The position numbers were made by a program, and so were the translations under genes. This document shows, piece by piece, positions 31,935-42,612 of a DNA stretch of 64,000 nucleotides. The notes below the pieces were generated by a model, which made no database searches, was not told the DNA's origin, and saw nothing but the letters and a program-made list of their open reading frames with translations. This DNA comes from Nitrospinales bacterium (lineage in GTDB: Bacteria > Nitrospinota > Nitrospinia > Nitrospinales > VA-1): positions 2,258,236-2,322,235 of the forward strand of contig OZ252246.1 in the NCBI GenBank assembly GCA_965249625.1. The letters run 5' to 3'. Position 1 is the stretch's first letter. The number at the start of each line of letters is the position of its first letter.

Positions 31935-32100
31935 GAGACCTTTGCATAACCCCGGATTCTTCGTCACCTTGTTCCTCAAGAATGACAAATAGCCTTGTAT
32001 TGTCATTCTGAACGCAGTGAAGACGTGATATTTTTCCTTAACCTTCGTGCCCCGAAGGGGTAATCTCGCTTTTCTGTTTTTTTCGACTTACGCAGCTCTC
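31935..32100. mobile_element. MITE (166 bp), A-type end GAGACCTTTGCATAAC / B-type end CTTACGCAGCTCTC
   Basis: Flanked by CTCTCATGA on both sides (31926-31934, 32101-32109); reverse complement is collinear with the copy at 60907. Confidence 0.75.
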
Positions 32101-32110
32101 CTCTCATGAG

Positions 32111-32239
32111 GAGACCTTTGCATAACCCTGGATTCTTCGTCGCTAACGCTCCTCCAGAATGACAAACCTGCGTTTCTTGTCATTCTGAACGGAGTGAAGA
32201 ATCTCGCCTTTACGCTTTTTCGACTTATGCAAAGGTCTC
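32111..32239. mobile_element. MITE (129 bp), divergent member of the same family
   Basis: GAGACCTTTGCATAACCCTGG ... CGACTTATGCAAAGGTCTC; flanked by TCTCATGAG on both sides (32102-32110, 32240-32248). Confidence 0.7.
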
Positions 32240-32323
32240 TCTCATGAGGGGAGGATCAATGAGAGTCTCGGCTTACACAAAGCCCTCCTTTAACCCTTTG
32301 AACAATTATGCTAATTTATTACC

Positions 32324-32779
32324 ATGGGTGCCTTGAGCAAAAAGAAATATGATTTTCTTTTGTATCTATTGGAAGAAGGCGATGCCATGGTTTGCCTCGA
32401 CGCCCGGCACCAGGAAGTGGATGTTCCAGCGGACCAAAAAAATAATTCATCGCTGAACCTGATATTCAACCTTAATTTCGGGCACCCGCTTGAAATAACA
32501 GAGGAAGGGATTTTTGCCACGCTGGCCTTCGACGGCAGACCCTATAAATGCTCCCTTCCCTATGACGCGGTATGGGCCATATACGACCCCAAAATGAAGA
32601 ACGGTCAGGTGTGGGAAGAAAGCATCCCCGAAGATATGAACCTGACAGATCAAGTGATGGGTGACCAGCCAGAAAAATCCCTGTCAAAACTGAAATCAGT
32701 GAAATCAAGCAGCAAACCTTCCAAGGACACCAAACCCGAAGGTAAGCGCGACCGCAGCCACCTTCGAGTCATCAAATAA
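32324..32779 (+). CDS. sspB: SspB-like ClpXP adaptor protein
   Basis: Core LNLIFNLNFGHPLEITEEGIFATLAFDGRPYKCSLPYDAVWAIYD aligns with E. coli SspB (from memory); disordered Ser/Lys-rich tail ending LRVIK (ClpX-binding LRVVK-type motif). Confidence 0.75.
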   Translation: MGALSKKKYDFLLYLLEEGDAMVCLDARHQEVDVPADQKNNSSLNLIFNLNFGHPLEITEEGIFATLAFDGRPYKCSLPYDAVWAIYDPKMKNGQVWEESIPEDMNLTDQVMGDQPEKSLSKLKSVKSSSKPSKDTKPEGKRDRSHLRVIK

Positions 32780-32869
32780 TTGTTCAGGACCGTTACCATA
32801 TCCTTTACAAAGGTTTGAGGATAGATTACACTCTGCCTCTGCTGAATCGAGTCTAAATAGAAAAATAAT

Positions 32870-32946
32870 GGTGGGCGTAGCTCAGTTGGTAGAGCTCTCG
32901 GTTGTGGTCCGAGTGGTCGCGGGTTCAAGCCCCGTCGCTCACCCCA
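32870..32946 (+). tRNA. tRNA-His (GUG), CCA encoded
   Basis: Cloverleaf by hand: G-1, acceptor GTGGGCG/CGCTCAC, anticodon arm CTCGG-TTGTGGT-CCGAG, T arm GCGGG-TTCAAGC-CCCGT, CCCA end. Confidence 0.9.
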
Positions 32947-32967
32947 TTTTTTGGCTATTATAGCCTT

Positions 32968-33133
32968 GTGATATCCTCTTCCCTAGCCTTCATGCCATTG
33001 GCTTCTGCCCTATAGAGTATGATGATATCTCCCACTTAAGCTTTCGTGAGCGTGTGATATCCCCAACCTTAACCTCATGCCCTATAGGGGTATGTTATAA
33101 CCCCTCCTATAACTTCATGCCCGGGACGGGTAG
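32968..33133. repeat. Tandem REP-like hairpin units directly after tRNA-His
   Basis: Three to four units of GTGATATCC..(C)TTCATGCCC-N-GGG(TA); related copies at 13179-13218 and, inverted, at 37201-37265; the hairpin core resembles the TTCGTGCCCCGAAGGGGTA inside the MITEs. Confidence 0.55.
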
Positions 33134-33236
33134 AAAGGGTAAACCCTTTTTAAATTATAGAAATCTTTCTGCGGTAATTTTGATGAAATTGGGAAGGCCT
33201 ATCATAAAAAATAATCAGAAAGGTGGGTCAAGAATC

Positions 33237-34655
33237 TTAATTGAAAGCGCGTAACTTGGTTTTTAAATATTCCTTAATTTCAGTACGCTTACTAATGTCA
33301 CTTTCTTTAAAAAGAATATAAAAGCGAATTGAAGTGAATTTTTTCATACCAATTACGTTCATTAAGGAACCTTTGGTTTCAGTAATCGGTTTAGAATCTG
33401 AACCATTATCATTAGCTATTTTAATTAACTGCTCATATTTGTCTTGGTCTTCAGAATTATGTTCACTTAATTTAGAAGCAAGCATATGGGAACCGAATGC
33501 TGTAATAGGGTTTTTAATTCTAGTCCACAAGTAAATCCGTTCTTGTTCAATTGAAAATCTCTTAGATACTTCGACAACTTCTTTATTAGCAAGTGCTACA
33601 GCATCTTCAATATTTTTATCATCTCTATCGACAAATTCTTCAGAATCTCCAACTAATCTGGGAGGGTTTCTTTCGAGAATTGAATCTATTTTTAAATTCA
33701 AGATTTCTTCCGTTGAATTCTTTTTCAATTCCCTTATTTTACTTAAAACAAAAGAATCATCAAAATATGACCACTCTTGGTTCCTCAAACTCTCTCTTAG
33801 TTTTTCCTTTGAGCAATCAATAATTTCTTTGTCAAGTAGAGCTTGAATAATATCTTTTAATACCAGCTCTAAAGCAACAACCGTTTTGTGGTAAGCAACC
33901 TGTAAACGATCAAAATGACGGCAAAGCAGGAAATGATCTGCTGCTCTCAAAGCCTTTTTGGAAAGACATAATTTATTATTCTTATCTACCAGCATTTGCG
34001 TGATTAGATAATCAATATCTACATTTCCAAATGGAAGACCGGTATGACAGGCAGTCCTTATTAGGAAGTCAATTCGATCTGCATCTAAATCTGAGCTAAT
34101 TAAATTTTGAAACTGGTGCCCCCCCTCTCTCCGAATAATAGAAGCAATCTCTTTAGGTTCAAAGCCAGCATCCCTAAGAATTTTGTTAATTTCAGGGTCT
34201 AGTTCAAGAATTCTTTTTCCCAATACCTCGTGAGAATAAAAATCTTTAGCCTGATCTTCACCTTCCCCTTTTGGATCAGAAATTTTTGGTTCATAAATCG
34301 TTTGTGTGTAAAAATTCCCAATTGCTTCTTCCATTGCATGTGAAAAGGGATAATGCCCAACATCGTGCAAAAGAGCTGCCAGACGATATTTTTGCATTTC
34401 TTCAGGGGAAAGTTGGGTGGATTGTTTTCCAATTAATTCATTCAAAATCCTTCCAGTAATGTGGCAAACCCCCAACGAGTGAGAAAATCTAGAAAAATCG
34501 GTCCCTGGGTAGACATAATGCGCTAATCCCAATTGCTTAACATTTCTAAGCCTTTGGAAAATTTTGGTTTGAATGATACTGCCTTCTAAATTGGATAGCT
34601 TGATCGTCTTATGAACGAGATCGGTAATATTTAATGGCAGGAGGAGGTTTGGCAC
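33237..34655 (-). CDS. SAMHD1/YwfO-like HD-domain phosphohydrolase (putative dNTP triphosphohydrolase)
   Basis: FSRFSHSLGVCH, LAALLHDVGHYPFSHAME, SSDLDADRIDFLIRT give the H..HD..D metal site of COG1078-type HD proteins; 472 aa with a long helical C-terminal region. Confidence 0.85.
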   Translation of the reverse strand: MPNLLLPLNITDLVHKTIKLSNLEGSIIQTKIFQRLRNVKQLGLAHYVYPGTDFSRFSHSLGVCHITGRILNELIGKQSTQLSPEEMQKYRLAALLHDVGHYPFSHAMEEAIGNFYTQTIYEPKISDPKGEGEDQAKDFYSHEVLGKRILELDPEINKILRDAGFEPKEIASIIRREGGHQFQNLISSDLDADRIDFLIRTACHTGLPFGNVDIDYLITQMLVDKNNKLCLSKKALRAADHFLLCRHFDRLQVAYHKTVVALELVLKDIIQALLDKEIIDCSKEKLRESLRNQEWSYFDDSFVLSKIRELKKNSTEEILNLKIDSILERNPPRLVGDSEEFVDRDDKNIEDAVALANKEVVEVSKRFSIEQERIYLWTRIKNPITAFGSHMLASKLSEHNSEDQDKYEQLIKIANDNGSDSKPITETKGSLMNVIGMKKFTSIRFYILFKESDISKRTEIKEYLKTKLRAFN

Positions 34656-34663
34656 GTAAAGAG

Positions 34664-35149
34664 CTAATTTAATAAACCAGCTTCTGACAATCGGGTGTCT
34701 GCTAACTCAAGGGAATCAATAAGGTGGGGTTTTTCTTCTTTCAGTGTATCTTGAGCTTCATTTTTGTTACAACCTCTCACTCCAATTAGGTAATGATAGG
34801 AAGCAACAAGTTCAAGCCATTCCTCATCTGCCAAAGAAGAAGCCTCTGGTTTTTCTAGTAAAGGATAAATATTATCAAGTTTTTCTCTAATCGAGGTTTT
34901 AAGCTTCATTTTCTCAAAATCGTCTTCCCCAAGATTAATAGCTTCTTCTAATTCATAATAGTCTTTGGTCAATTTGGAACAGTAGGGGCCTTTTAAATAC
35001 CAACTAAATCTATAACCAAAATCAATGCCAGATAGTTGCCCCAGATAAACGGCTTTTTGAACTCGAACCCTATCCTCCAAGGAATTAATCTCTGAAGAAA
35101 CTCCGAGCTGATCCAAAAAAAGCTGTAAAGCAATCAATCTAGGTTTCAT
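34664..35149 (-). CDS. YwgA / Panacea (SocA, DUF4065)-like protein
   Basis: RVRVQKAVYLGQLSGIDFGYRFSWYLKGPYCSKL fits the xxQKxxYL...F.YxFxxYxxGPYSxxL pattern I recall for B. subtilis YwgA and DUF4065 proteins; only 8 nt upstream of the HD gene. Confidence 0.6.
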   Translation of the reverse strand: MKPRLIALQLFLDQLGVSSEINSLEDRVRVQKAVYLGQLSGIDFGYRFSWYLKGPYCSKLTKDYYELEEAINLGEDDFEKMKLKTSIREKLDNIYPLLEKPEASSLADEEWLELVASYHYLIGVRGCNKNEAQDTLKEEKPHLIDSLELADTRLSEAGLLN

Positions 35150-35388
35150 GCAAAAATAATCCTCAAATTTTACTGATTAAAAAAGGCTAAAATCTATTAA
35201 TTATCAATATGTTATAACTTCAAGGCCTGCTGTCCAGCGAACTCAGGTGGGAGAATGAAATGTTAATTTGTACTTGCTGTCCTTAAAAGCTTTAATTTTT
35301 TACCCCATTTCCACCATAGTGTCAACAGATTAAATATAATGGCACTTAGCCTATTTTACAAACTGCTTAGAGATAAAATTGCTTGAAA

Positions 35389-35406
35389 CATGTATAATTA
35401 TACATG
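35389..35406 (+). promoter_or_regulatory. Perfect 18-bp palindrome (candidate XRE operator) overlapping TATAAT and the XRE start codon
   Basis: CATGTATAATTATACATG is its own reverse complement; contains TATAAT (35393-35398) 5 nt before the ATG at 35404, implying a leaderless or very short-leader mRNA. Confidence 0.5.
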
Positions 35407-35649
35407 CCAAAAAAGCCAATTGATAGCTATACCCGCCAAAGAGGCCTTCTTTTTTCGCAAACCCTAAAAAAGGAAAGAAAGGCACAAAACCACACTCAAG
35501 ACCAACTAGCAAAAATGGCTAACGTTTCTCTCGATACTCTTTGATCTATAGAAAATGGTCGCACATCAAACCCAGGGTTATTTATTGCAGCAAACCTTGT
35601 TGAAGTTCTTAAGGGAGATTTGACAGAATGGGTCAACCGAGCCAAATAA
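35404..35649 (+). pseudogene. XRE-family HTH regulator interrupted by an in-frame TGA
   Basis: MPKKPIDSYTRQRGLLFSQTLKKERKAQNHTQDQLAKMANVSLDTL*SIENGRTSNPGLFIAANLVEVLKGDLTEW is a complete HTH_XRE domain; the TGA lies at 35542-35544. Confidence 0.6.
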
Positions 35650-36014
35650 GCATTAATTCCTATGCCCAAAAAACTAACTATTCACCACAAGATGACAAAG
35701 ATACATTTATCCGGATATTATGCGAGGATTATTTAAAAAAATCGAATAAAACCGAATTTATAAAATTATCAAACTCTAATTTAATACTAAAATTTAAATG
35801 GGGAAATCCTTTAGTTTTTGGAACACCTTCTTATTGGATTATTCAAACCCAATTAGTTTTATGGAATAAAAATTATTTTTCCTATGCTTTAGGCAAAAAC
35901 CTTTTCGAAGAAACTATAGCTTGTTTGTTGGGGGGTTATGGGATCCCAGCGGAAGTAGGATTAAAGGCTTTTGAAGAATTAAAATATCAAGGCCTGACTA
36001 CCTTCCCTTGCTGA
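35628..36014 (+). CDS. Hypothetical protein (128 aa), possibly a truncated OGG/HhH-fold protein
   Basis: C-terminal LFEETIACLLGGYGIPAEVGLKAFEELKYQGL resembles the start of HhH-GPD/OGG-fold proteins (weak, from memory); ORF overlaps the XRE 3' end and the RT 3' end. Confidence 0.35.
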   Translation: MGQPSQISINSYAQKTNYSPQDDKDTFIRILCEDYLKKSNKTEFIKLSNSNLILKFKWGNPLVFGTPSYWIIQTQLVLWNKNYFSYALGKNLFEETIACLLGGYGIPAEVGLKAFEELKYQGLTTFPC

Positions 36015-36745
36015 GGGCAAACACTTTTCACATAACCTATTATCGCCTCCGATCTTTTCGGATTTTCCAAGGAAACCGCATTCAAAAACTTATTGAAGCG
36101 ATCATGTTCAATTGCTCTTTTATATTGAGTTATGCTTATATTAAATGCACTTGATTTAAGCTGAAGAGGGTGCGACTTGTTTTGATTTAAAAGCAAACCA
36201 GCCTTTTCTATTGCTGCAACCAAATTTTCATAAGTCTTTGAAAGAGATGCCTCGTCGTTCGACGATATTATAAAATCATCAACATAAACAGAAATTGCAA
36301 CGTTTGGAAGGACACCTTTTCTCAAAAAATTTCCAATTGGTGATTTATCCATGCATAAGGTTGATAATATTTGAGATTGGACGAAACCAAATGGAAGAAT
36401 TCGCTTCGACGGATCTTCCTTTGAAACGACACAACTCCATTCAACAATATTTAATCTATGTTTATAAGAAAGATGAAAGGATCTTAAAACCCTAAGAACT
36501 CTACTTCTTAAAATACTTGAGAAAAAATTTTTAATATCTACCTTAGCAAAATAACGATTATCTTTATGGTCTAAGATTGCTGCAATATGCCCACCAGCTT
36601 TAAAATGATAACAGTAATCGGGGGGAGCCCAATATTTCAGGATGGTTTTAACAATCTCTTTGCCTTTTAAGCGGCAATTATCGCTTGGAACAAAAATCCA
36701 TCGTTTTTGAGGGGTCTTAAAGCAAAGATCGTAATTATGTTGCAT
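35987..36745 (-). CDS. Stand-alone reverse transcriptase (252 aa, RT core only)
   Basis: KRWIFVPSDNCRLKGKEIV (motifs 1-2), FAKVDIKNFFSSI (A), LPFGFVQSQILSTL (B), YVDDFIISS (C, nt 36275-36286), LLLNQNKS (D/E); no additional domains. Confidence 0.85.
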   Translation of the reverse strand: MQHNYDLCFKTPQKRWIFVPSDNCRLKGKEIVKTILKYWAPPDYCYHFKAGGHIAAILDHKDNRYFAKVDIKNFFSSILRSRVLRVLRSFHLSYKHRLNIVEWSCVVSKEDPSKRILPFGFVQSQILSTLCMDKSPIGNFLRKGVLPNVAISVYVDDFIISSNDEASLSKTYENLVAAIEKAGLLLNQNKSHPLQLKSSAFNISITQYKRAIEHDRFNKFLNAVSLENPKRSEAIIGYVKSVCPQQGKVVRP

Positions 36746-37169
36746 GAGATCTTTTTAAGGTAGTCGTTAGCCGAGCACGCTAACTCAATCAGTTTCCACA
36801 AGATTAATAAAAATCTTGTGGCTTTCATGAGGTCACGTGCCCAGCAAGGTATAATATTATTTTTCATAATACTATTCTCCTGCAATCCCCCTGGCGACCT
36901 TAATAATATGTAAAACATATCATCATTCTGGCCTAACGACCAAGAAGGCTAACACTGGACATCCATTGGATATTCAAGGCTAAACCTAAAGGCAGGCTGA
37001 ATATTGATATCAATGTGATAACAATAGACAAGCTGCATGGAGAACCCTTTCACCAGAAGGTGTAGCCATAATATCAATATGGCTGAAAGGAATCAACCTT
37101 ACCATATGCCTTTAAACCCCTAAATTTGCCCATCAGCTAACCCCTTAAAATTCAACAACCAGATAACCA

Positions 37170-37201
37170 CTGAATCCCAGCTCCAGTGGTCGCGGGTTCT
37201 A
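37170..37201 (+). repeat. Degenerate partial tRNA-His copy (att-like remnant)
   Basis: CTGAATCCCAGCTCCAGTGGTCGCGGGTTCTA: AGTGGTCGCGGGTTC (37185-37199) is identical to tRNA-His 32911-32925; it shares TCCAG..GGTCGCGGGTTCTA with the copy at 42271. Confidence 0.55.
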
Positions 37202-37299
37202 CCCCTCCGGGGCATGAACTTACGGAAGAGGATATCGCAGGCTCACGAAGTTAATGTTGGGAGCATTTAAAAGTTTTCAGATACTAGTCGAATACGAAA

Positions 37300-37515
37300 T
37301 TAAAGCGACGAACGTGGAGTTATGATTGGCCCGCCTCCTAACCCCTTCCACATTAAAACGAACAGAGTAATCACCAAAACTATAAAAACAGCCAAAATAA
37401 CCTTGGCTGTTTTACTCATGGCTGGTTCCTGTTTAACTTCATTTTGAGGAGACTCAACTTTTTTATCTTGTTGCATATCGTTGCAGTCCATTTCTGAGAA
37501 GGAGATGGGAAACAA
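37300..37515 (-). CDS. Small single-pass membrane protein (hypothetical)
   Basis: ORF with one strongly hydrophobic segment (AKVILAVFIVLVITLFVLMW); start uncertain; no homology recognised. Confidence 0.35.
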   Translation of the reverse strand: MFPISFSEMDCNDMQQDKKVESPQNEVKQEPAMSKTAKVILAVFIVLVITLFVLMWKGLGGGPIITPRSSL

Positions 37516-37731
37516 AATTGCTTATGAGGCCAAAGTTATAATTCACCTTTTTACTCGGCACCCAACGCCCACGATACAATGTAGCACTATTCATGGTAGT
37601 GTGTCTGCAGTGAATGGGAGTGACACAAATAGTTAAAAAAATAATTAGGTACTAGTCATGGTCATTTTAAATTTAGTATTAAATTTTGCGGCAAAGTTGG
37701 GAGAAACCAGGTGGTAAAGCCAACTGAGACG

Positions 37732-39213
37732 ATGGCCGACCCTACCCGCCCGCACTTCAACTTCGATAACAGCTTCGCCCGCAGCCTTGAAGGCTTTTTC
37801 AAGTTCTGCCAGGCAGAACCTGCGGCCGCCCCGAAACTGCTGCAGTTCAACCATGCCCTGGCCGAGGAGCTCGGCCTTGATCCCGTCGCGCTCGATTCGG
37901 AAGCAGGTTTGGCGATTTTTTCTGGCAATGCAACACCCGAGGGCTCGGAACCGCTAGCCCAGGCTTATGCCGGGCACCAGTTTGGCGGGTTCGCACCGCA
38001 GCTGGGGGATGGACGCGCGCTTCTTCTCGGTGAGGTGATCGACACCCAACAACGACGCCGCGATATCCAGCTAAAAGGATCGGGCCGCACCCCGTTCTCT
38101 CGCGGCGGAGATGGCAAGGCGGCTATTGGCCCAGTGTTGCGCGAATACCTGATCGGGGAGAGCATGCATGCGCTCGGCATCCCGACTACACGCGCCCTGG
38201 CGGCCGTTACCACCGGGGAGGCCGTCTATCGGGAATTCCCTCTACCCGGTGCTATTCTCACCCGGGTTGCGGCTAGCCACATCCGCGTCGGGACCTTCGA
38301 GTTTGGTGCTGCACACGGTGACGTCGACAAAGTCCGTGCACTTGCCGATTATGCCATTCAGCGACACTACCCCGAAATAGCCGATGCGGAAAACCCATAT
38401 CTGTCATTCTTCGCGGCCGTCACCGATGCCCAGGCCGCCCTGGTGGCGCGCTGGATGAATATCGGTTTCATCCACGGGGTGATGAACACCGACAACATGA
38501 CGATCTCCGGCGAGACCATCGACTACGGGCCCTGCGCTTTTATGGACAGCTATGCGCCGGGCACGGTGTTCAGCTCGATCGACCACCACGGCCGCTATGC
38601 CTATGCTAACCAGCCGGTGATCCTGGCCTGGAACCTGACCCGATTGGCGGAAACGCTGGTCCGGTTTGTCGATCCCGACAAGGACCGGGCCATCGAATTG
38701 CTGACCGAAACGATCGAGCGTATTCAGCCACTCTATGAGACTTACTGGCTGGCCGGAATGCGGTCCAAGATCGGTTTGTCGACGGAAGATCCTCTCGACC
38801 TGGAACTGATCAACGATCTGCTATCGGTGATGGAAGACGGACATGCAGATTTCACCCTCGTCTTCCGCCGTCTCTCCCAAGCCTTGCGCGGTGATAGCGA
38901 CGCGGTACGACACTTGTTCAAAGAACCTGCTGCCTTCGATGTCTGGGCGCAGCGTTGGCGAAAGCGCCTGGAACGGGATGGAATTGCAGCGGAGACTGGC
39001 GCTAAGGCGATGGACCGGGTCAATCCGATTTATATCCCGCGAAACCATAAGGTCGAAGAAGCCCTTGCCGCCGCCAATCGGGATGACATGATGCCCTTCT
39101 CGGAGCTGCTGGCCGTTTTAAGCCATCCCTTCGACGAGGTCGCGGGCAACGAAGCTTATGCCGCGCCGGCGCCGGTTACGGACAGACCCTACAAGACGTT
39201 CTGCGGGACCTGA
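37732..39213 (+). CDS. selO: Protein adenylyltransferase SelO (YdiU family)
   Basis: FNFDNSFARSL, AYAGHQFGGFAPQLGDGRA, KGSGRTPFSRGGDGKA, HGVMNTDNMTISGETIDYGP are SelO hallmarks; start at the ATG 37732 or the GTG 37711. Confidence 0.9.
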   Translation: MADPTRPHFNFDNSFARSLEGFFKFCQAEPAAAPKLLQFNHALAEELGLDPVALDSEAGLAIFSGNATPEGSEPLAQAYAGHQFGGFAPQLGDGRALLLGEVIDTQQRRRDIQLKGSGRTPFSRGGDGKAAIGPVLREYLIGESMHALGIPTTRALAAVTTGEAVYREFPLPGAILTRVAASHIRVGTFEFGAAHGDVDKVRALADYAIQRHYPEIADAENPYLSFFAAVTDAQAALVARWMNIGFIHGVMNTDNMTISGETIDYGPCAFMDSYAPGTVFSSIDHHGRYAYANQPVILAWNLTRLAETLVRFVDPDKDRAIELLTETIERIQPLYETYWLAGMRSKIGLSTEDPLDLELINDLLSVMEDGHADFTLVFRRLSQALRGDSDAVRHLFKEPAAFDVWAQRWRKRLERDGIAAETGAKAMDRVNPIYIPRNHKVEEALAAANRDDMMPFSELLAVLSHPFDEVAGNEAYAAPAPVTDRPYKTFCGT

Positions 39214-39264
39214 TGGTGATAGTAATCGTCCCAAACTAGTGCAACTTATGCGGGAAGATCATTT

Positions 39265-41046
39265 ATGAACCAGGAACAGGTTGCGATTTTTTCAATTCTT
39301 GCCGGTGTTCTTGCTCTGTTCGCGTGGGGAAGAATCCGTTATGACGTGGTCGCTTTCATAGCGCTCATCCTGTGCGTTTTTCTACACCTGGTTCCTGCTC
39401 AGGATGCCTTTTCCGGTTTTTCCCATCCAGCGACGATCACCGTCGCAGTGGTACTTATCCTCAGTCGGGGTCTGGCCAATTCCGGCGCGGTGGACTTGCT
39501 CGTGAAAACTGTGATGTTCACTGTCAAGCGAGTTTCTCTTCATGTGGCTGTGCTTTCCGGGGTCTCGGCGTTATTTTCCATGGTGATGAACAATGTCGGC
39601 GCTTTGGCCCTTTTGATGCCGGTGGGGATTGAATCTTCCAAGAAAACCAAACGATCGCCTGCAGTGATTCTGATGCCGATGTCCTTTGCATCCATCCTGG
39701 GTGGTCTTGTTACTCTCATTGGAACCCCGCCAAACATCATCATCGCCAACTTTCGCGCGGATGTGAAAGGAGAGCCATTTACAATGTTCGATTTCTCGCC
39801 CGTGGGCGGGGTAGTGGCGATCACGGGAGTGGCCTACATCGCATTGGCAGGCTGGAGGATGATTCCCAAAAAACGGCGGGCACGAATCGCCGATGAGGAA
39901 TTGATCGCCATCGATGATTATATTTCCGAAATTCGCGTACCAAAAGATTCAGAATTGATCGGCGTGGCGATGCGGGAACTCGACCAACAGGCGGAAAAGC
40001 TGGATGTCGAGATCGTGGGACTGGTACGGGATAAACGCCGTATCCTGGCCGCGCTTCGTCATGAAGAAATCAACAGCGGAAATATCCTGGTTGTCGAAGC
40101 CGGACCCCAGGAACTTGACAAGTTCGTGACCGAGACCAAACTCGAGTTGGTGACGGGAGACAAAGGGAAAGCTTCCCTCTTGCGCTCAGAAGATACCACG
40201 ACGATGGAAGTCGTCGTGCAGTCGAGTTCACGAATGGAGGGACGAACATTTACCTCGCTTCGACTCAAGAACCGTTACGGTATTCATCTGCTCGGAGTAT
40301 CCCGCCAGGGGACGCCGGTCCACAGACATCTTCCACAAGTGCGGTTTCGTGGTGGTGACGTCCTGCTACTTCAAGGTGATTCCGAAAGTCTTGCAGAGTT
40401 GGTCTCGTCATTAGGCTGTCTCCCGTTGGCCACACGCAGGCTTAATTTAGGAGCCGGAAAAAAGGCTGGGCTTGCAGTAAGTATTTTTGCAGTGGCCATC
40501 GTTGCCGCGACAATGGGGTTGGCCTCACTTCCGATAGCCCTTTCAGCCGCCGCCATTGCAATGGTGCTCTTCAATATCGTACCCGTCCGTGATGTTTACC
40601 GTGAGATCGACTGGCCCGTCGTCGTTCTGCTGGGAGCAATGATTCCAATAGGTGGGGCTCTGGAATCTACCGGAGGGACGGAACGGATCGCCGAAGCGAT
40701 TCTGAGCCTGGGTGCAAATCTGGCTCCCGCCTTCATCCTAGCCCTGATTTTGATCGTTACCATGACCTTGTCCGATGTGATGAACAACGCGGCAACCGCC
40801 GTGGTGATGGCTCCGGTAGCAGTCAGCATTGCCGGACAACTCGGTGTCAACATCGATCCGTTCCTCATGGCCGTCGCCGTGGGTGCCTCGTGCGCCTTTC
40901 TCACCCCCATTGGACATCAGAACAACACATTGATCATGGGCCCAGCGGGATACAAGTTCGGCGATTACTGGCGCATGGGATTGCCGCTGGAAATTTTAAT
41001 TACAGTCCTTGCCGTTCCCATGATCCTCATTGTCTGGCCTCTCTGA
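39265..41046 (+). CDS. SLC13/DASS-family permease with two internal TrkA-C (RCK_C) domains
   Basis: Polytopic N- and C-terminal halves (NNVGALALLMPV, SDVMNNAATAVVMAPV) separated by about 200 aa of soluble repeat (YISEIRVPKDSELIG..., MEVVVQSSSRMEGRT...). Confidence 0.85.
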   Translation: MNQEQVAIFSILAGVLALFAWGRIRYDVVAFIALILCVFLHLVPAQDAFSGFSHPATITVAVVLILSRGLANSGAVDLLVKTVMFTVKRVSLHVAVLSGVSALFSMVMNNVGALALLMPVGIESSKKTKRSPAVILMPMSFASILGGLVTLIGTPPNIIIANFRADVKGEPFTMFDFSPVGGVVAITGVAYIALAGWRMIPKKRRARIADEELIAIDDYISEIRVPKDSELIGVAMRELDQQAEKLDVEIVGLVRDKRRILAALRHEEINSGNILVVEAGPQELDKFVTETKLELVTGDKGKASLLRSEDTTTMEVVVQSSSRMEGRTFTSLRLKNRYGIHLLGVSRQGTPVHRHLPQVRFRGGDVLLLQGDSESLAELVSSLGCLPLATRRLNLGAGKKAGLAVSIFAVAIVAATMGLASLPIALSAAAIAMVLFNIVPVRDVYREIDWPVVVLLGAMIPIGGALESTGGTERIAEAILSLGANLAPAFILALILIVTMTLSDVMNNAATAVVMAPVAVSIAGQLGVNIDPFLMAVAVGASCAFLTPIGHQNNTLIMGPAGYKFGDYWRMGLPLEILITVLAVPMILIVWPL

Positions 41047-41184
41047 ATTTTTCGCACTTTAAAAAATTCCTTTTCAATTTATTTTTTTTCTTCCTGGCTA
41101 GTTACCAATCCTTTCCTTTCCAAAACATTTTTCAAGGCTTCAAGCAGTTTTCACATACATCAATTGGAAACAGATTCAAAAGCC

Positions 41185-42078
41185 TCATATTTCCAAAGCA
41201 AGGTCAAGAGCTCGTTGCTTAATTTTGGCATTCGAACCAAACCAAGCCTGCCGCAGGCGATAGTCTTTAGTAGATCCGAGTTGGTGATCGATAATGTAGA
41301 TAACCGCATTCAATAACCCCCAAGCGGTCATTTCAGCAGATTCAAGATCCTGTCCCGGTGCCTGGGAGAAAGCCTCAATCGCTAACTTTGTGTTTTTCTC
41401 CGCAAGTTCATCCAATTCTTTCTCACCGATTACAGAAACGCCTTCAAGGGTATCCGGCTGAAAAACTTCAAACAGATACCTCCAGGCTATTGGTTCATCC
41501 AGCTTTTTATCTGACAGGTCCCGAGCAACATTTGCAAAAGCAGTAATCGCCTCGCGCCCTGGAACGATGATGTCATTTACTTTTTGCTTCATCTTATCAT
41601 CGAATTTTTGTGGCTTCTCGTTCTTAAATGGAAAGGCAGGTTTAAACGTACTTCTGAAAATATTTTTCATGTGGGATTTGGCATTGGAAACAATCTTTAA
41701 CATACTATGACAACTTTCCCGCACGGTGAGAAACTGAATTTCAATCCTTTCCCTACCATCATTCCGCGAGGCCAACAAGACGTAACCCTTTACCTTGTCT
41801 CCTCCCCGCAAAGTGAAATCTTCATTCAAACAGGCAAGGCTCCAAAGTATTCTTGCATTATCAAGGCCGCCTACAGTTTCGATTTTGGCCTTGGCAACCT
41901 CAAAAAAGGCTTTGAAGAACCTAATCGTTTCCTGATTGCCGTAGGATATTGGCCGCTGAGAAGGAACTCTTTTAACCTCCCAATCGAGCTTAGCCTTGTA
42001 CAACATTTCAGCAGCGGAATCGTTTTTGTCGACATCCGCACCGATACCATGCCAGGGTTTTTGATTCGATACTTCCAT
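41185..42078 (-). CDS. DUF932 domain-containing protein (phage/plasmid/ICE-associated family)
   Basis: NQKPWHGIGADVDKNDSAAEMLYKAKLDWEVKRVP matches the DUF932 N-terminal pattern; start uncertain (ATG 42078 or GTG 42153; no clear SD for either). Confidence 0.7.
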   Translation of the reverse strand: MEVSNQKPWHGIGADVDKNDSAAEMLYKAKLDWEVKRVPSQRPISYGNQETIRFFKAFFEVAKAKIETVGGLDNARILWSLACLNEDFTLRGGDKVKGYVLLASRNDGRERIEIQFLTVRESCHSMLKIVSNAKSHMKNIFRSTFKPAFPFKNEKPQKFDDKMKQKVNDIIVPGREAITAFANVARDLSDKKLDEPIAWRYLFEVFQPDTLEGVSVIGEKELDELAEKNTKLAIEAFSQAPGQDLESAEMTAWGLLNAVIYIIDHQLGSTKDYRLRQAWFGSNAKIKQRALDLALEI

Positions 42079-42270
42079 ATTTATAATCCACAGAAATAAG
42101 AAGGCCGCAGTAGGACAAGCAGGAATAGAAAGAAAAGTTTCTTCACTAGCCACCTCGTTGTATTTGGAATACCAATGCTATTTCAGCAGGAGAATATTGT
42201 CAATCTGGGGAGATTTTAGAACAAAATTAGGGGGATTAAAACTTCAAAAGAATCAATGGTCGAACCCTTA

Positions 42271-42317
42271 CTGGATTGTGGCTCCAGGGGTCGCGGGTTC
42301 TAGGCCCGTCGCTCTGA
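42271..42317 (+). repeat. Partial tRNA-His copy (anticodon arm to 3' end), att-like island boundary
   Basis: CTGGA-TTGTGGC-TCCAG GGGTC GCGGG-TTCTAGG-CCCGT CGCTCTG A aligns with tRNA-His 32896-32943; the anticodon stem differs by compensatory changes; no D arm or 5' acceptor. Confidence 0.65.
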
Positions 42318-42612
42318 CAATGGGCCAGAGTTTACAGCAAAAGCTGTCAGGTACTGGTTGGAACGATTGGGCGTTCAAACACTGTTTATCGAACCAGGAA
42401 GTCCCTGGGAGAATGGTTATAATGAATCGTTCAATGGAAAACTTAGAGATGAGTCGTTAAATGGAGAAATCTTCACAACTTTGCTGGAAGCTCAGATACT
42501 GATTGAAAACTGGAGGGAGGAATATAACCAATTTCGACCACATAGCTCACTGAATTATCGGCCTCCAGCACCAGAGGCTATACAGCCCGTGAAGGTGGAA
42601 ATACTAACTTAA
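42313..42612 (+). pseudogene. 3' fragment of an rve-domain (IS3-like) DDE transposase
   Basis: SDNGPEFTAKAVRYWLERLGVQTLFIEPGSPWENGYNESFNGKLRDESLNGEIF...RPHSSLNYRPPAPE; the N-terminal two-thirds are missing; the fragment starts at the tRNA-His remnant. Confidence 0.75.

What the first reader, a model, noticed from the sequence alone, without database searches (positions are those of the whole stretch)
35987..37201. Minimal 252-aa orphan reverse transcriptase with a ~400-nt ORF-free, hairpin-rich leader: candidate ncRNA-templated RT system of unassigned type
**Seen in the protein.** ORF 35987..36745(-) encodes only an RT core.
- Motifs 1-2: KRWIFVPSDNCRLKGKEIV.
- Motif A: FAKVDIKNFFSSI (D70).
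- Motif B: LPFGFVQSQILSTL.
- Motif C: YVDDFIISS (nt 36275-36286).
- Motif D/E: LLLNQNKS, followed by about 90 aa of thumb.
- There is no fused effector, maturase, nitrilase or primase-type domain.
- Motif B is G-x3-SQ. I associate that variant with DGR RTs rather than the QGxxxSP of retron and group II RTs.
- No template/variable repeat pair is visible, and the retron VTG thumb motif is absent.

**Seen in the leader.** On the coding strand, 36746-37150 has no credible ORF but several structures.
- A perfect 10-bp-stem hairpin CCACAAGATT/AATCTTGTGG lies at 36796-36821.
- A 6-bp hairpin lies at 36766-36784, about 20 nt before the ATG.
- A 10-bp pairing ATATTGATAT (37001-37010) / ATATCAATAT (37071-37080) is present.
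- Long-range complementarity links TTTTAAGG..GTTAGC (36753-36771) with GCTAAC..CCTTAAAA (37136-37150). This resembles the a1/a2 closure of retron ncRNAs, but it spans a much longer RNA.
- The leader ends at a tRNA-His T-arm-like fragment (37170-37201).

**Inference.** This is a compact ncRNA-dependent, probably defence-related RT that I cannot place in retron, DGR, DRT/UG, Abi or group II classes from sequence alone.
Basis: partly seen in the sequence, partly recalled or inferred. Interest (0 to 1): 0.85.

Follow-up and report, generated by a model that had tools for sequence, protein, structure and literature searches.

The report
Minimal retron-like RT with riboregulated micro-protein
This is an intact copy of a widespread, unnamed three-part bacterial module, made of a folded RNA, a roughly 40-residue protein whose ribosome site the RNA masks, and a very small reverse transcriptase, that most resembles the recently described type VI retron phage-defence systems but lacks their regulator protein.

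Summary
The 252-aa reverse transcriptase (RT) is real and intact, and it belongs to a conserved family of 250-270-aa RTs. The family occurs in at least 165 species-level genomes, on plasmids, in Klebsiella P2-like phages and in 34 of 5,426 E. coli genomes.

The "ORF-free leader" is not ORF-free. It holds:
- a conserved sigma-70 promoter;
- a structured RNA of about 175 nt closed by a covarying 9-bp stem;
- a Shine-Dalgarno site and start codon that are both masked by covarying pairings;
- a small ORF with a 31-61-codon core that overlaps the RT start, found in 141 of 155 loci.

The small ORF folds into a covarying hairpin, and its 3' end pairs back into the upstream RNA as a pseudoknot.

- the two local hairpins are not conserved in homologues;
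- the ATATTGATAT pairing has one arm in the promoter;
- the a1/a2 closure lies upstream of the promoter.

By fold the RT is nearest retron RTs. It reaches no retron-type model threshold, lacks the VTG and NAxxH motifs, and shows no TR/VR pair.

The architecture matches the "hybrid RNA" of type VI retrons (Retron-Vpa2, Retron-Sen3), but there is no HTH gene, the micro-protein is smaller and the RT is shorter.

Verdict: a new variant of a known kind. A defence function is inferred, not shown.

The parts
37068..37096 (-). Sigma-70-type promoter: -35 TTGATT, 17-nt spacer, TG-extended -10 TATTAT. The predicted transcription start is about 37062.
   Evidence: The consensus scan finds it. A -35/-10 pair sits at the same place, just 5' of the conserved RNA, in the close homologues and in the consensus of the distant group.
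36887..37062 (-). Structured 5' RNA domain of about 175 nt, closed by stem P1 (5' arm 37060-37052, 3' arm 36895-36887).
   Evidence: P1 pairs in 100% of cells, with 5 of 9 pairs changed on both sides, in 12 close homologues. In 44 distant homologues it pairs in 96.6% of cells, with 9-17 double changes per pair at four of six pairs. The MFE fold recovers P1. No Rfam family matches.
37039..37044 (-). Anti-Shine-Dalgarno segment UUCUCC, inside P1. It pairs with the SD site, which lies outside P1, forming a pseudoknot.
   Evidence: The longest helix between matched anti-SD and SD windows averages 7.85 bp, against 6.29 +/- 0.12 for permuted partners (maximum 6.62 in 200 permutations). The extensions are lineage-specific, for example UCCUUUCU/AGAAAGGA in L167 and UUUCAUCUUG/CAAGAUGGAG in L008.
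36945..37035 (-). Two hairpins whose sequence varies but whose structure is kept. They are the candidate reverse-transcription template (msd-like).
   Evidence: The stretch of the alignment that includes them (87 nt in the window) folds with z = -3.2. The median z is -3.05 across 12 close homologues, each with two hairpins. The sequence aligns poorly between homologues. The template role is inferred by analogy with SL3 of Retron-Sen3.
36933..36942 (-). Conserved block UGGUCGUUAG, the 5' strand of long-range pseudoknot PK2. With its 5' flank (CCUUCUUGGU) it is a near direct repeat of the P1 5' arm (CCUUCUGGU).
   Evidence: It pairs with 36770-36761 in 99.2% of cells, and 4 pairs change on both sides (185/380 GC:7 AU:5; 186/379 CG:7 UA:3 AU:1 GC:1). 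In the distant group pair 140/325 is GC:36 AU:8 with no mismatch.
36903..36923 (-). Hairpin Hb, just 5' of the P1 3' arm.
   Evidence: 6 of 7 pairs change on both sides in the close group. An equivalent GCGC-loop-GCGC hairpin occurs in the distant group.
36851..36880 (-). Translation initiation region of the small ORF: SD GGAGAA 36880-36875, AUG 36867-36865, and a hairpin (36875-36867 with 36859-36851) that encloses the start codon.
   Evidence: Matched upstream and downstream windows give a helix of 6.05 bp, against 5.34 +/- 0.10 for permuted partners (maximum 5.59). Examples are UUUUGC/GCAAAA, UUAAAAAA/UUUUUUAA and UUACGA/UCGUAA. The MFE fold places the AUG in this hairpin.
36667..36867 (-). 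Small ORF (SP), 66 codons. The conserved core is 36 aa, MKNNIIPCWARDLMKATRFLLILWKLIELACSANDY (36867-36760). The unconserved tail overlaps the RT start.
   Evidence: An SD-preceded, in-frame, stop-free ORF that ends its core at conserved (N/D)Y is found in 141 of 155 loci, giving 122 distinct proteins with cores mostly 33-39 aa. Indels in the coding sequence are multiples of three. The N-terminus is basic (median +3) and the body hydrophobic (median 19-aa Kyte-Doolittle hydropathy (KD) 1.74). Gene callers and PGAP already call it in several loci. No Pfam or PHROG family matches.
36768..36847 (-). Long hairpin formed by the SP coding sequence itself (stem 36847-36838 with 36777-36768).
   Evidence: The stem pairs in 96.4% of cells and 6 of 7 pairs change on both sides. 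The distant group has equivalent basal and apical helices with up to 21 double changes per pair. The apical 10-bp hairpin is not conserved in register in the close group.
36761..36770 (-). 3' strand of PK2 (CUAACGACUA). It overlaps the conserved Asn/Asp-Tyr codons, so it is constrained both as RNA and as protein, and it lies 16 nt upstream of the RT AUG.
   Evidence: The third position of the Asn codon (C/U) covaries with G/A in the upstream block.
35987..36745 (-). Reverse transcriptase, 252 aa, with fingers, palm and a short thumb and no extra domain. The catalytic motif YVDD is at residues 154-157.
   Evidence: Pfam RVT_1 1.1e-19. The AlphaFold model has mean pLDDT 93.6. The 15 best Foldseek PDB hits are all retron RTs, with query-normalised TM-score (TMq) 0.68-0.77. 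Family invariants are H47, GGH51-53, A56, H60, D70, FF74-75, PxGFxQS, YxDD, K190 and FN201-202.
37169..37205 (+). Context only: a tRNA-His-like fragment that marks an internal boundary of a low-GC island. It is not part of the module.
   Evidence: It repeats 32912-32932 of tRNA-His. A fuller copy of the tRNA-His 3' half lies at about 42265-42320. GC is 31-40% between 33000 and 37200, against 45-63% in the flanks.

Best explanation
A self-contained module of about 1.35 kb (37096 to 35987, minus strand) is transcribed from one promoter as a hybrid RNA.

- **5' domain.** The first 175 nt or so form a multi-hairpin domain closed by stem P1.
- **Masked start.** The ribosome-binding site of a micro-protein gene (SP) lies just outside P1 and is held by an anti-SD segment inside P1. 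The start codon is enclosed in a second hairpin.
- **Fold-back.** The SP coding sequence folds on itself, and its 3' end pairs back into the 5' domain.
- **RT.** The 252-aa retron-type RT is encoded immediately downstream and overlaps the SP tail.

Proposed working, by analogy with type VI retrons:
1. The RT binds this RNA and reverse-transcribes part of the 5' domain, probably the variable hairpins and the conserved block next to them.
2. A change in the amount or integrity of that cDNA during phage infection remodels the pseudoknotted riboregulator.
3. The basic, hydrophobic micro-protein is then translated and arrests the cell, giving abortive infection.

**Shown here:** the conserved three-part architecture, the RNA pairings and their covariation, the masking of the SD and AUG, the retron-like RT fold, and the location in mobile and defence contexts.

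**Inferred:** cDNA synthesis from this RNA, SP toxicity, the direction of the switch, and phage defence itself.
For: **Conserved architecture**
- The RT family has a uniform length of 250-270 aa in 165 genome hits and 90 metagenome hits.
- No protein neighbour of 60 aa or more is conserved. The largest neighbour cluster is an integrase, in 14 of 81 loci.
- The leader is conserved. Sequence-only profiles detect it in 126 of 151 loci, ending at the RT start.

**RNA structure**
- In the close group 33 pairs are 95.9% paired, against 52% or less in slid controls. 21 pairs change on both sides, and 0 of 500 shuffles reach this.
- In the distant group 38 pairs are 91.9% paired, against 40% or less in slid controls, again 0 of 500.
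- The SD is sequestered and the AUG lies in a hairpin.
- The transcript folds with z = -7.7.

**Micro-protein and RT**
- SP coding signatures and physicochemistry are given.
- The RT has a retron-type fold.

**Genomic context**
- Members lie next to Hachiman, Schlafen/ResIII and HipA genes and within conjugative-element genes.
- In E. coli and Klebsiella P2-like prophages the module lies between ogr and the prophage end.
- In the window it lies at the edge of a tRNA-His island.

**Precedent**
- In Retron-Sen3 the SP RBS is sequestered in the basal stem, a long-range pairing flanks the SP gene, and base pairs covary within the SP coding sequence.
Against: - No experimental data exist for any member. 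No paper found in this library describes the family, and the only paper that matched the E. coli protein accessions is an unrelated 2015 Salmonella Typhi assay paper.
- There is no HTH gene. In Vpa2 the HTH restrains reverse transcription and in Sen3 it neutralises the SP, so control here must differ.
- The RT scores only 48-68 bits on retron-type models, with no type preferred. It lacks the VTG and NAxxH motifs.
- Neither the priming nucleotide nor the template can be named from sequence. Two helices (P1 and PK2) could each play the a1/a2 role.
- The window's own SP is less hydrophobic than the family median (KD 1.33 against 1.74).
- SP-RT overlap and likely translational coupling would also fit SP being an RT cofactor.
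Confidence: 0.55

Rival explanations
1. The parts are the same but the logic is that of a canonical retron toxin-antitoxin system. The RT makes cDNA constitutively, and the RT-cDNA-RNA complex, or RNase H cutting of the templated SP mRNA, keeps SP off. Phage interference with the cDNA or the RT then releases SP. In the sharpest version PK2 acts as a1/a2 and the SP coding hairpin itself is the template, so the cDNA is antisense to the toxin message.
For: - The order along the RNA is 5' PK2 strand, hairpin Hb, long SP-coding hairpin, 3' PK2 strand. This matches the canonical order a1, msr hairpins, msd hairpin, a2.
- Retron-Sen3 makes ssDNA constitutively.
- Most characterised retrons use msDNA as the antitoxin.
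Against: - P1 fits equally well as the closing inverted repeat, with variable internal hairpins as in Sen3 SL3.
- No conserved unpaired G sits next to PK2. The base after the block is G or A.
- The heavy masking of the SD and AUG suggests that the default state is already "off" without cDNA.
Confidence: 0.2
2. SP is not a toxin but a small basic accessory subunit of the RT, in the manner of DGR Avd, made in fixed ratio with the RT by translational coupling. The RNA would be template and scaffold of a retroelement whose output is not abortive infection.
For: - The SP stop lies between 3 nt upstream of and 166 nt downstream of the RT start in all 122 distinct cases, so the two are likely coupled.
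- The N-terminus is basic.
- No separate antitoxin gene is present.
Against: - There is no similarity to Avd or to any Pfam or PHROG family.
- A core of 33-39 aa with a hydrophobic helix is typical of small toxins.
- Masking both the SD and the AUG is hard to reconcile with a needed stoichiometric cofactor.
- There is no target gene or TR/VR pair.
Confidence: 0.12
3. The leader is only a cis-regulatory translational operator of an SP-RT operon, for example through RT autoregulation. The RT would act on other templates or without a template, as some Abi/DRT enzymes do.
For: - All conserved long-range pairings touch translation signals or coding sequence.
- Protein-primed, template-independent synthesis is known for AbiK and DRT9-type RTs (established knowledge; DRT9 structures are among the weaker fold matches).
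Against: - The 5' domain is far larger than a simple operator needs: four further hairpins, two of them keeping structure while sequence varies.
- The RT fold is nearest to retron RTs, which copy their own adjacent RNA.
- The RT has no alpha-Rep or priming domain at 252 aa.
Confidence: 0.1
4. It is a decayed remnant of a DGR, group II intron or classical retron that has lost its partners.
For: - The window copy lies in an integrase-less island beside a truncated HTH gene.
- The SQ in motif B recalls DGR RTs.
Against: - The same compact layout recurs in more than 150 loci across Alpha-, Beta- and Gammaproteobacteria, with intact ORFs and covarying RNA.
- No TR/VR pair is present and no intron RNA family is found in Rfam.
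- The SQ is not conserved in the family.
Confidence: 0.02

Closest known systems
Type VI retrons: Retron-Vpa2 (bioRxiv 10.1101/2025.10.22.683967) and Retron-Sen3 (bioRxiv 10.64898/2026.04.27.721009)
   Same: - One transcript joins a structured, inverted-repeat-closed RNA to the coding sequence of a small helical, hydrophobic protein.
- The RBS and start codon are masked by RNA structure.
[quoted passage not shown]
- A long-range pairing ties the SP region back to the upstream RNA.
- A small retron-type RT lies downstream.
- Hosts are proteobacteria, and the setting is prophage or genomic island.
   Different: - There is no Cro/C1 HTH gene. SP overlaps the RT directly, so there is no room for one, and no neighbour is conserved.
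- The SP core is 31-61 aa (mostly 33-39), against 55-79 aa.
- The long-range 3' arm lies inside the SP coding sequence (the Asn/Asp-Tyr codons) rather than downstream of the stop codon.
- The RT is about 250 aa. It aligns to positions 43-244 of the 279-position RT_VI model at only 48 bits, no better than other retron types.
Canonical retrons (for example Ec86/Eco1, Ec78/Eco7, Ec83)
   Same: - These give the best structural matches for the RT (TMq 0.72-0.77) and the best profile matches.
- A structured RNA lies immediately upstream of the RT and is closed by inverted repeats.
   Different: - The VTG and NAxxH motifs are missing; the family has GGHxxAxxxH and AFN instead.
- The NCBIfam retron_St85 score is 70 bits against a cut-off of 235.
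- There is no separate enzymatic effector.
- The effector candidate is encoded within the RNA itself.
- msDNA has not been demonstrated.
DRT2 and DRT9 (two-component RT + ncRNA defence systems of the UG/Abi lineage)
   Same: Both are minimal gene sets consisting of an RT and an adjacent structured RNA. In DRT2 the effector peptide arises from the RNA-templated product.
   Different: - Those RTs are more than 400 aa long and have extra C-terminal domains.
- Profile matches here are weak, at 33-42 bits to the Drt3a, UG17, UG20 and Drt8 models.
- DRT9 is only the 16th-ranked fold match.
- Here the peptide has an ordinary SD and AUG on the primary transcript.
Type I toxin-antitoxin loci (hok/sok, tisB/istR) - established knowledge
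   Same: Both have a small basic, hydrophobic peptide whose translation is held off by long-range folding of its own mRNA, including 5'-3' fold-back pairing and a masked SD.
   Different: No antisense RNA gene is evident. An RT is co-transcribed, and the presumed trans-acting nucleic acid would be cDNA.
Diversity-generating retroelements
   Same: Both combine a small RT with a small basic accessory protein and an RNA. The close subgroup has a GxxxSQ motif B.
   Different: - There is no TR/VR pair and no target gene.
- The SQ is not conserved.
- The DGR RT is only the 35th-ranked fold match.

Membership tests
Retron (general) | RT with the retron-type fold and sequence affinity | tested here: met
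   The top 15 Foldseek PDB hits are all retron RTs. A profile of the family finds retron RTs first in the PDB sequence search. The best PADLOC and NCBIfam hits are retron RT models.
Retron (general) | Score above a curated retron-family threshold, or conserved retron signature motifs (NAxxH, VTG) | tested here: not met
   NCBIfam retron_St85 scores 70.4 bits against a cut-off of 235. VTG occurs in 0 of 29 members and NAxxH in 1 of 29. For comparison, the lowest reference retron RT scores 114.5 bits on a general retron HMM.
Retron (general) | Structured ncRNA next to the RT, closed by inverted repeats (a1/a2) | tested here: met
Stem P1 closes the RNA with strong covariation in both subgroups.
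Retron (general) | Production of branched msDNA from a 2'-OH of a conserved G | not testable with these tools
   This needs cDNA or msDNA extraction. No unambiguous priming G could be named from the alignments.
Type VI retron | Cro/C1-type HTH protein encoded upstream of or overlapping the RT (about 78% of members) | tested here: not met
   SP overlaps the RT start in nearly all loci. No protein neighbour is conserved in 81 loci. The truncated HTH_3 ORF at 35404-35544(+) in the window lies downstream on the other strand and is not a family feature.
Type VI retron | Small helical SP encoded between the ncRNA and the RT, on one hybrid transcript with its RBS masked | tested here: met
   The SP is smaller here (core 31-61 aa, against 55-79 aa). 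Co-transcription is inferred from the single conserved promoter.
Type VI retron | RT inside the monophyletic type VI lineage of retron RT clade 3 | tested here: inconclusive
   The RT_VI model scores 48 bits for the window RT, and its best E-value among 29 members is 5.6e-23. This is about the same as II-A, I-B and IX. No reference type VI sequences were available for a tree.
DGR | Template/variable repeat pair with adenine-specific differences, a target gene and Avd | tested here: not met
   The leader or RT region has no repeat of 40 nt or more anywhere in the 64-kb window. SP has no Avd or other family match.
UG/Abi (DRT) reverse transcriptases | RT of more than 400 aa with a C-terminal alpha-helical repeat or other fused domain, and a match to a UG/DRT/Abi model | tested here: not met
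   The protein is 252 aa with only a three-helix thumb. The Drt3a, UG17, UG20 and Drt8 models score 33-42 bits, and AbiA has E = 0.07.
Group II intron RT | Maturase (X) domain and flanking intron RNA domains | tested here: not met
   TIGR04416 scores 31.5 bits against a cut-off of 300. Rfam finds no intron family in 32000-38500.

The most novel reading that the evidence does not exclude
This may be the founding example of a minimal, HTH-less retron class. A roughly 250-aa RT, among the smallest bacterial RTs with a complete fingers-palm-thumb fold, would use cDNA made from its own mRNA leader as the only trans-acting switch of a pseudoknotted riboregulator. That riboregulator gates a toxin of about 36 aa. 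Sensing, regulation and effector would all be encoded in one 1.3-kb transcript. In the sharpest version the toxin's own coding hairpin is the template.
Probability: 0.35. Interest if true: 0.85.

Novelty: new variant of a known kind. Interest (0 to 1): 0.72.

Why it matters
- **Extends a new principle.** It would carry the recently proposed [quoted passage not shown] idea beyond type VI retrons. The lineage here is widespread (at least 165 species-level genomes, rhizobial and enterobacterial plasmids, P2-like prophages of E. coli and Klebsiella), and current defence finders and genome annotation label it only "reverse transcriptase domain-containing protein" plus "hypothetical protein".
- **Bears on an open question.** Because it lacks the HTH partner, it offers a simpler system for asking how reverse transcription is coupled to toxin release.
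- **Possible tool.** A 250-aa retron-type RT with a compact cognate RNA is an attractive chassis for retron-based DNA production and editing.
- **Dual coding.** The pseudoknot strand that also encodes the invariant Asn/Asp-Tyr is a clean example of one sequence constrained both as RNA and as protein.

Tried and rejected
Tested in ten homologues and at chance level in all of them. It lies upstream of the conserved promoter.
No covariation in register.
- **Local GGUC-GUUA-GGCC hairpin predicted by RNAalifold.** It shows only one-sided changes, whereas the competing long-range pairing of the same block has compensatory changes. The long-range pairing is preferred.
- **DGR reading.** No TR/VR pair.
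- **Conserved protein partner.** None found by all-against-all clustering of neighbouring ORFs. The HD/dGTPase-like and DarG-C/Panacea-like genes beside the RT in the window are not family features.
- **Rfam.** No family matches the leader.
- **Host identification.** The exact RT sequence is not on record for contig look-up, and the cluster carries no name.
- **Supplement of the 2020 retron classification.** Not held, so I could not check whether any member was in the reference set.
- **Accession search.** WP_000151541 and WP_000380485 turn up no relevant paper.
- **Full-length covariance model.** Not built, because about 330 positions would exceed the time limit. Sequence-only nhmmer profiles were used instead to measure spread.
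Full report
**1. What is at the coordinates**

ORF 35987..36745(-) encodes a 252-aa protein that matches Pfam RVT_1 (1.1e-19, residues 13-194).

A homologue search returned 32 proteins. Apart from four truncated entries, all are 246-265 aa long. In an alignment of 29 of them, these residues are invariant: H47, GGH51-53, A56, H60, D70, FF74-75, P118-x-GF-x-QS, Y154-x-DD, K190 and F201-N202.

An AlphaFold model built on that alignment is confident (mean pLDDT 93.6, pTM 0.85). It shows fingers, palm and a three-helix thumb, with nothing else attached.

**2. The family is large and its members stand alone**

- Pattern scans found 165 relatives among one-genome-per-species bacterial genomes. The listed hosts are mostly Alpha-, Beta- and Gammaproteobacteria.
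- A further 90 relatives came from metagenomes.
- In the 81 loci compared, the RT is 244-292 aa apart from two truncated copies.
- Clustering of all neighbouring ORFs of 60 aa or more found no conserved partner. The largest cluster, in 14 of 81 loci, is a tyrosine integrase lying just upstream.
- Members also occur on 9 plasmids, including a Pantoea plasmid where the RT sits beside ssb and psiB.
- They occur in 13 Klebsiella P2-like phages, between ogr and the end of the phage genome.
- They occur in 34 of 5,426 complete E. coli genomes. One was examined: there the module lies in a P2-like prophage at ssrA. In the listed genomes the two genes are annotated only as "reverse transcriptase domain-containing protein" and "hypothetical protein".
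- Close relatives lie next to Hachiman, Schlafen/ResIII, HipA and conjugation genes.

**3. The leader is not ORF-free**

Translating the alternative frames upstream of the RT start in 86 loci revealed a small ORF in nearly all of them. It has a basic N-terminus and a hydrophobic helix, and its conserved part ends in (N/D)Y.

I then applied explicit criteria: an ATG preceded by an SD-like site, in frame and stop-free up to the conserved AAY/GAY-UAY codons.
- The ORF is found in 141 of 155 loci and gives 122 distinct proteins.
- The core is 31-61 aa long, most often 33-39.
- The ORF is always out of frame with the RT.
- Its stop lies between 3 nt upstream of and 166 nt downstream of the RT start.
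- Indels within it are multiples of three.
- The first 12 residues carry a median net charge of +3.
- The most hydrophobic 19-residue window has a median Kyte-Doolittle (KD) value of 1.74.
- No Pfam or PHROG family matches it.

In the window the ORF is 36867..36667(-). Its core is MKNNIIPCWARDLMKATRFLLILWKLIELACSANDY.

**4.

A -35/-10 pair sits at a fixed place just 5' of the conserved sequence, in both close and distant homologues. In the window it is TTGATT, a 17-nt spacer, then TG-extended TATTAT at 37096-37068. This puts the transcription start near 37062.

*Close group (12 sequences, alignment A4).* Four helices totalling 33 pairs are 95.9% paired, against 52% or less in slid controls. 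21 pairs change on both sides, and 0 of 500 shuffles reach this. The helices are:
- P1, the closing stem (37060-37052 with 36895-36887);
- hairpin Hb (36923-36903);
- a stem formed by the two ends of the small ORF (36847-36838 with 36777-36768);
- PK2, a pseudoknot between a conserved block inside P1 (36942-36933) and the Asn/Asp-Tyr codons (36770-36761).

*Distant group (44 sequences, alignment A5).* The same architecture holds. 38 pairs are 91.9% paired, against 40% or less in slid controls. One PK2 pair is GC in 36 sequences and AU in 8, with no mismatch.

*Variable region.* Between the anti-SD segment and the conserved block lie two hairpins. Their sequence varies but their structure is kept (median z = -3.05).

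*Spread.* Sequence-only profiles detect the leader in 126 of 151 loci. Rfam has no matching family.

- The 10-bp and 6-bp hairpins show no covariation.
- The proposed a1/a2 closure lies upstream of the promoter. The 8-mer arises in 6% of shuffles, and the best matches at the equivalent place in all ten homologues tested are also at chance level.

**5. Translation of the small ORF is structurally masked**

- A conserved UUCUCC segment lies just after the P1 5' arm and is complementary to the SD site.
- Across 84 distinct loci, the longest helix between each locus's own anti-SD and SD windows averages 7.85 bp. Permuted partners give 6.29 +/- 0.12. The extensions are lineage-specific.
- The bases between the SD and the AUG pair with codons of about 4-9. 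Matched windows give 6.05 bp and permuted partners 5.34 +/- 0.10.
- The minimum-free-energy fold of the predicted transcript has z = -7.7. It recovers P1, the variable hairpins, Hb, the start-codon hairpin and the coding-sequence hairpin.

**6. Classification**

*Fold.* The RT is closest to retron RTs. The 15 best PDB matches are all retron RTs, with query-normalised TM-score (TMq) 0.68-0.77 across the whole protein. DRT9, group II, G2L4, CRISPR-associated and DGR RTs rank lower. A sequence profile of the family gives the same order.

*Profiles.* No model threshold is reached.
- The NCBIfam retron_St85 model scores 70 bits against a cut-off of 235.
- PADLOC retron models for types II-A, VI, I-B and IX score about equally across all 29 members, with best E-values of 1e-21 to 1e-24.

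*Motifs and repeats.*
- VTG and NAxxH are absent.
- No TR/VR pair exists in the window.
- The SQ of motif B is not conserved in the family.

**7. Closest described system**

Two preprints describe type VI retrons.
- *Retron-Vpa2.* A "hybrid RNA" of about 470 nt joins the msr-msd region to the coding sequence of a toxic small protein. The RBS and start codon of that protein sit in stem-loops, and the 3' end of the RNA pairs back. Phage-induced msDNA is needed for its translation.
- *Retron-Sen3.* The SP RBS is sequestered in the basal stem. A long-range pairing flanks the SP gene, and base pairs covary inside the SP coding sequence.

The module here reproduces this logic in smaller form. It differs in four ways:
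- it has no HTH protein, which 78% of type VI systems carry;
- its micro-protein is shorter, with a core of 31-61 aa against 55-79 aa;
- its RT is shorter;
- it shows no specific affinity to the type VI RT model.

I found no paper describing this family in the library searched.

**8. Mechanism**

*Shown computationally:* the promoter, structured RNA, masked micro-ORF and RT arrangement; all the pairings listed above; and the mobile or defence context.

*Inferred by analogy:*
- the RT copies part of the 5' domain;
- the cDNA, or its loss, remodels the riboregulator;
- the micro-protein is the toxic effector;
- the outcome is abortive infection.

The direction of the switch and the identity of the template cannot be decided from sequence. 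In the close group the conserved block is a near direct repeat of the P1 5' arm (CCUUCUUGGU and CCUUCUGGU). A cDNA of one would therefore be complementary to the other. That is the kind of arrangement proposed for Vpa2.

**9. Context in the window**

- The module sits at the right edge of a low-GC segment (31-40% GC, 33000-37200) that begins at tRNA-His (32871-32946).
- A 21-nt repeat of the tRNA lies at 37185-37205.
- A fuller copy of the tRNA-His 3' half, including the anticodon loop, lies at about 42265-42320.
- Together these suggest a composite island of about 9.4 kb. No integrase was found among the ORFs examined.
- The neighbouring HD/dGTPase-like and DarG-C-like genes are not conserved partners of the RT.

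**10. Verdict**

This is a real, intact and widespread three-part module that has no name. It is best described as a new variant of the retron kind, closest in design to type VI retrons. Its function is inferred, not shown.

Noticed in passing
window 32871-32946, 37169-37205, 42265-42320: An intact tRNA-His is followed by two partial copies. The second copy (about 42265-42320) keeps the anticodon loop, the T-arm and the 3' acceptor strand. This suggests tandem accretion of two islands (32947-37205 and 37206-42320) at tRNA-His. No integrase was found among the ORFs examined in either.
   Followed up: partly
window 33237-34655(-) and 34664-35149(-): A 472-aa HD-domain protein with weak dGTPase/SAMHD1-like matches is followed 8 nt later by a 161-aa protein resembling the C-terminal, toxin-binding part of DarG (Panacea-like). 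They may form an independent two-gene defence or toxin-antitoxin pair in the same island.
   Followed up: partly
window 35404-35544(+) and 35628-36014(+): A 46-aa ORF matches only the first half of an XRE-type HTH_3 domain. It is followed by a 128-aa ORF with no family match that converges on the RT and overlaps its 3' end by 28 nt. It looks like a disrupted regulator gene.
   Followed up: no
window 32967-32989, 33043-33135, 37197-37249: Copies of a repeat of about 40-50 nt (core TGTGATATCC...CATGCCC...GGGGTA) lie just after tRNA-His and, in inverted orientation, just outside the RT module. They look like REP- or MITE-like elements bracketing the low-GC segment.
   Followed up: no
window 37711-39213(+) and 39265-41046(+): A SelO adenylyltransferase gene has 58-63% GC and a CitMHS/TrkA-C transporter gene has 51-57% GC. 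They sit between two tRNA-His fragments in a window whose other regions are about 42-50% GC. A DUF932 gene (41185-42153, minus strand), whose family I recall as typical of conjugative elements, lies next to the outer fragment.
   Followed up: partly
L172 (Pantoea agglomerans plasmid NZ_CP090210.1) 1650-4738: A family member sits about 1 kb downstream of ssb and psiB on a MOBF mobilizable plasmid. That position is the plasmid leading region, which I recall from earlier work as being rich in anti-defence and early-expressed genes.
   Followed up: no
L171 (Klebsiella phage Kp4845-2) 2560-3720; L173 (E. coli C2) 5100-6121: In P2-like prophages the whole module (about 1.2 kb) fills the gap between ogr and the prophage end at ssrA. 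This is not the cos-adjacent hotspot surveyed in the preprint I checked for it.
   Followed up: partly
window 37300-37515(-): A 71-aa ORF with one predicted hydrophobic helix lies just outside the island boundary. A weak, sub-threshold Rfam match (STnc430, 30 bits against a gathering score of 47) overlaps it.
   Followed up: no
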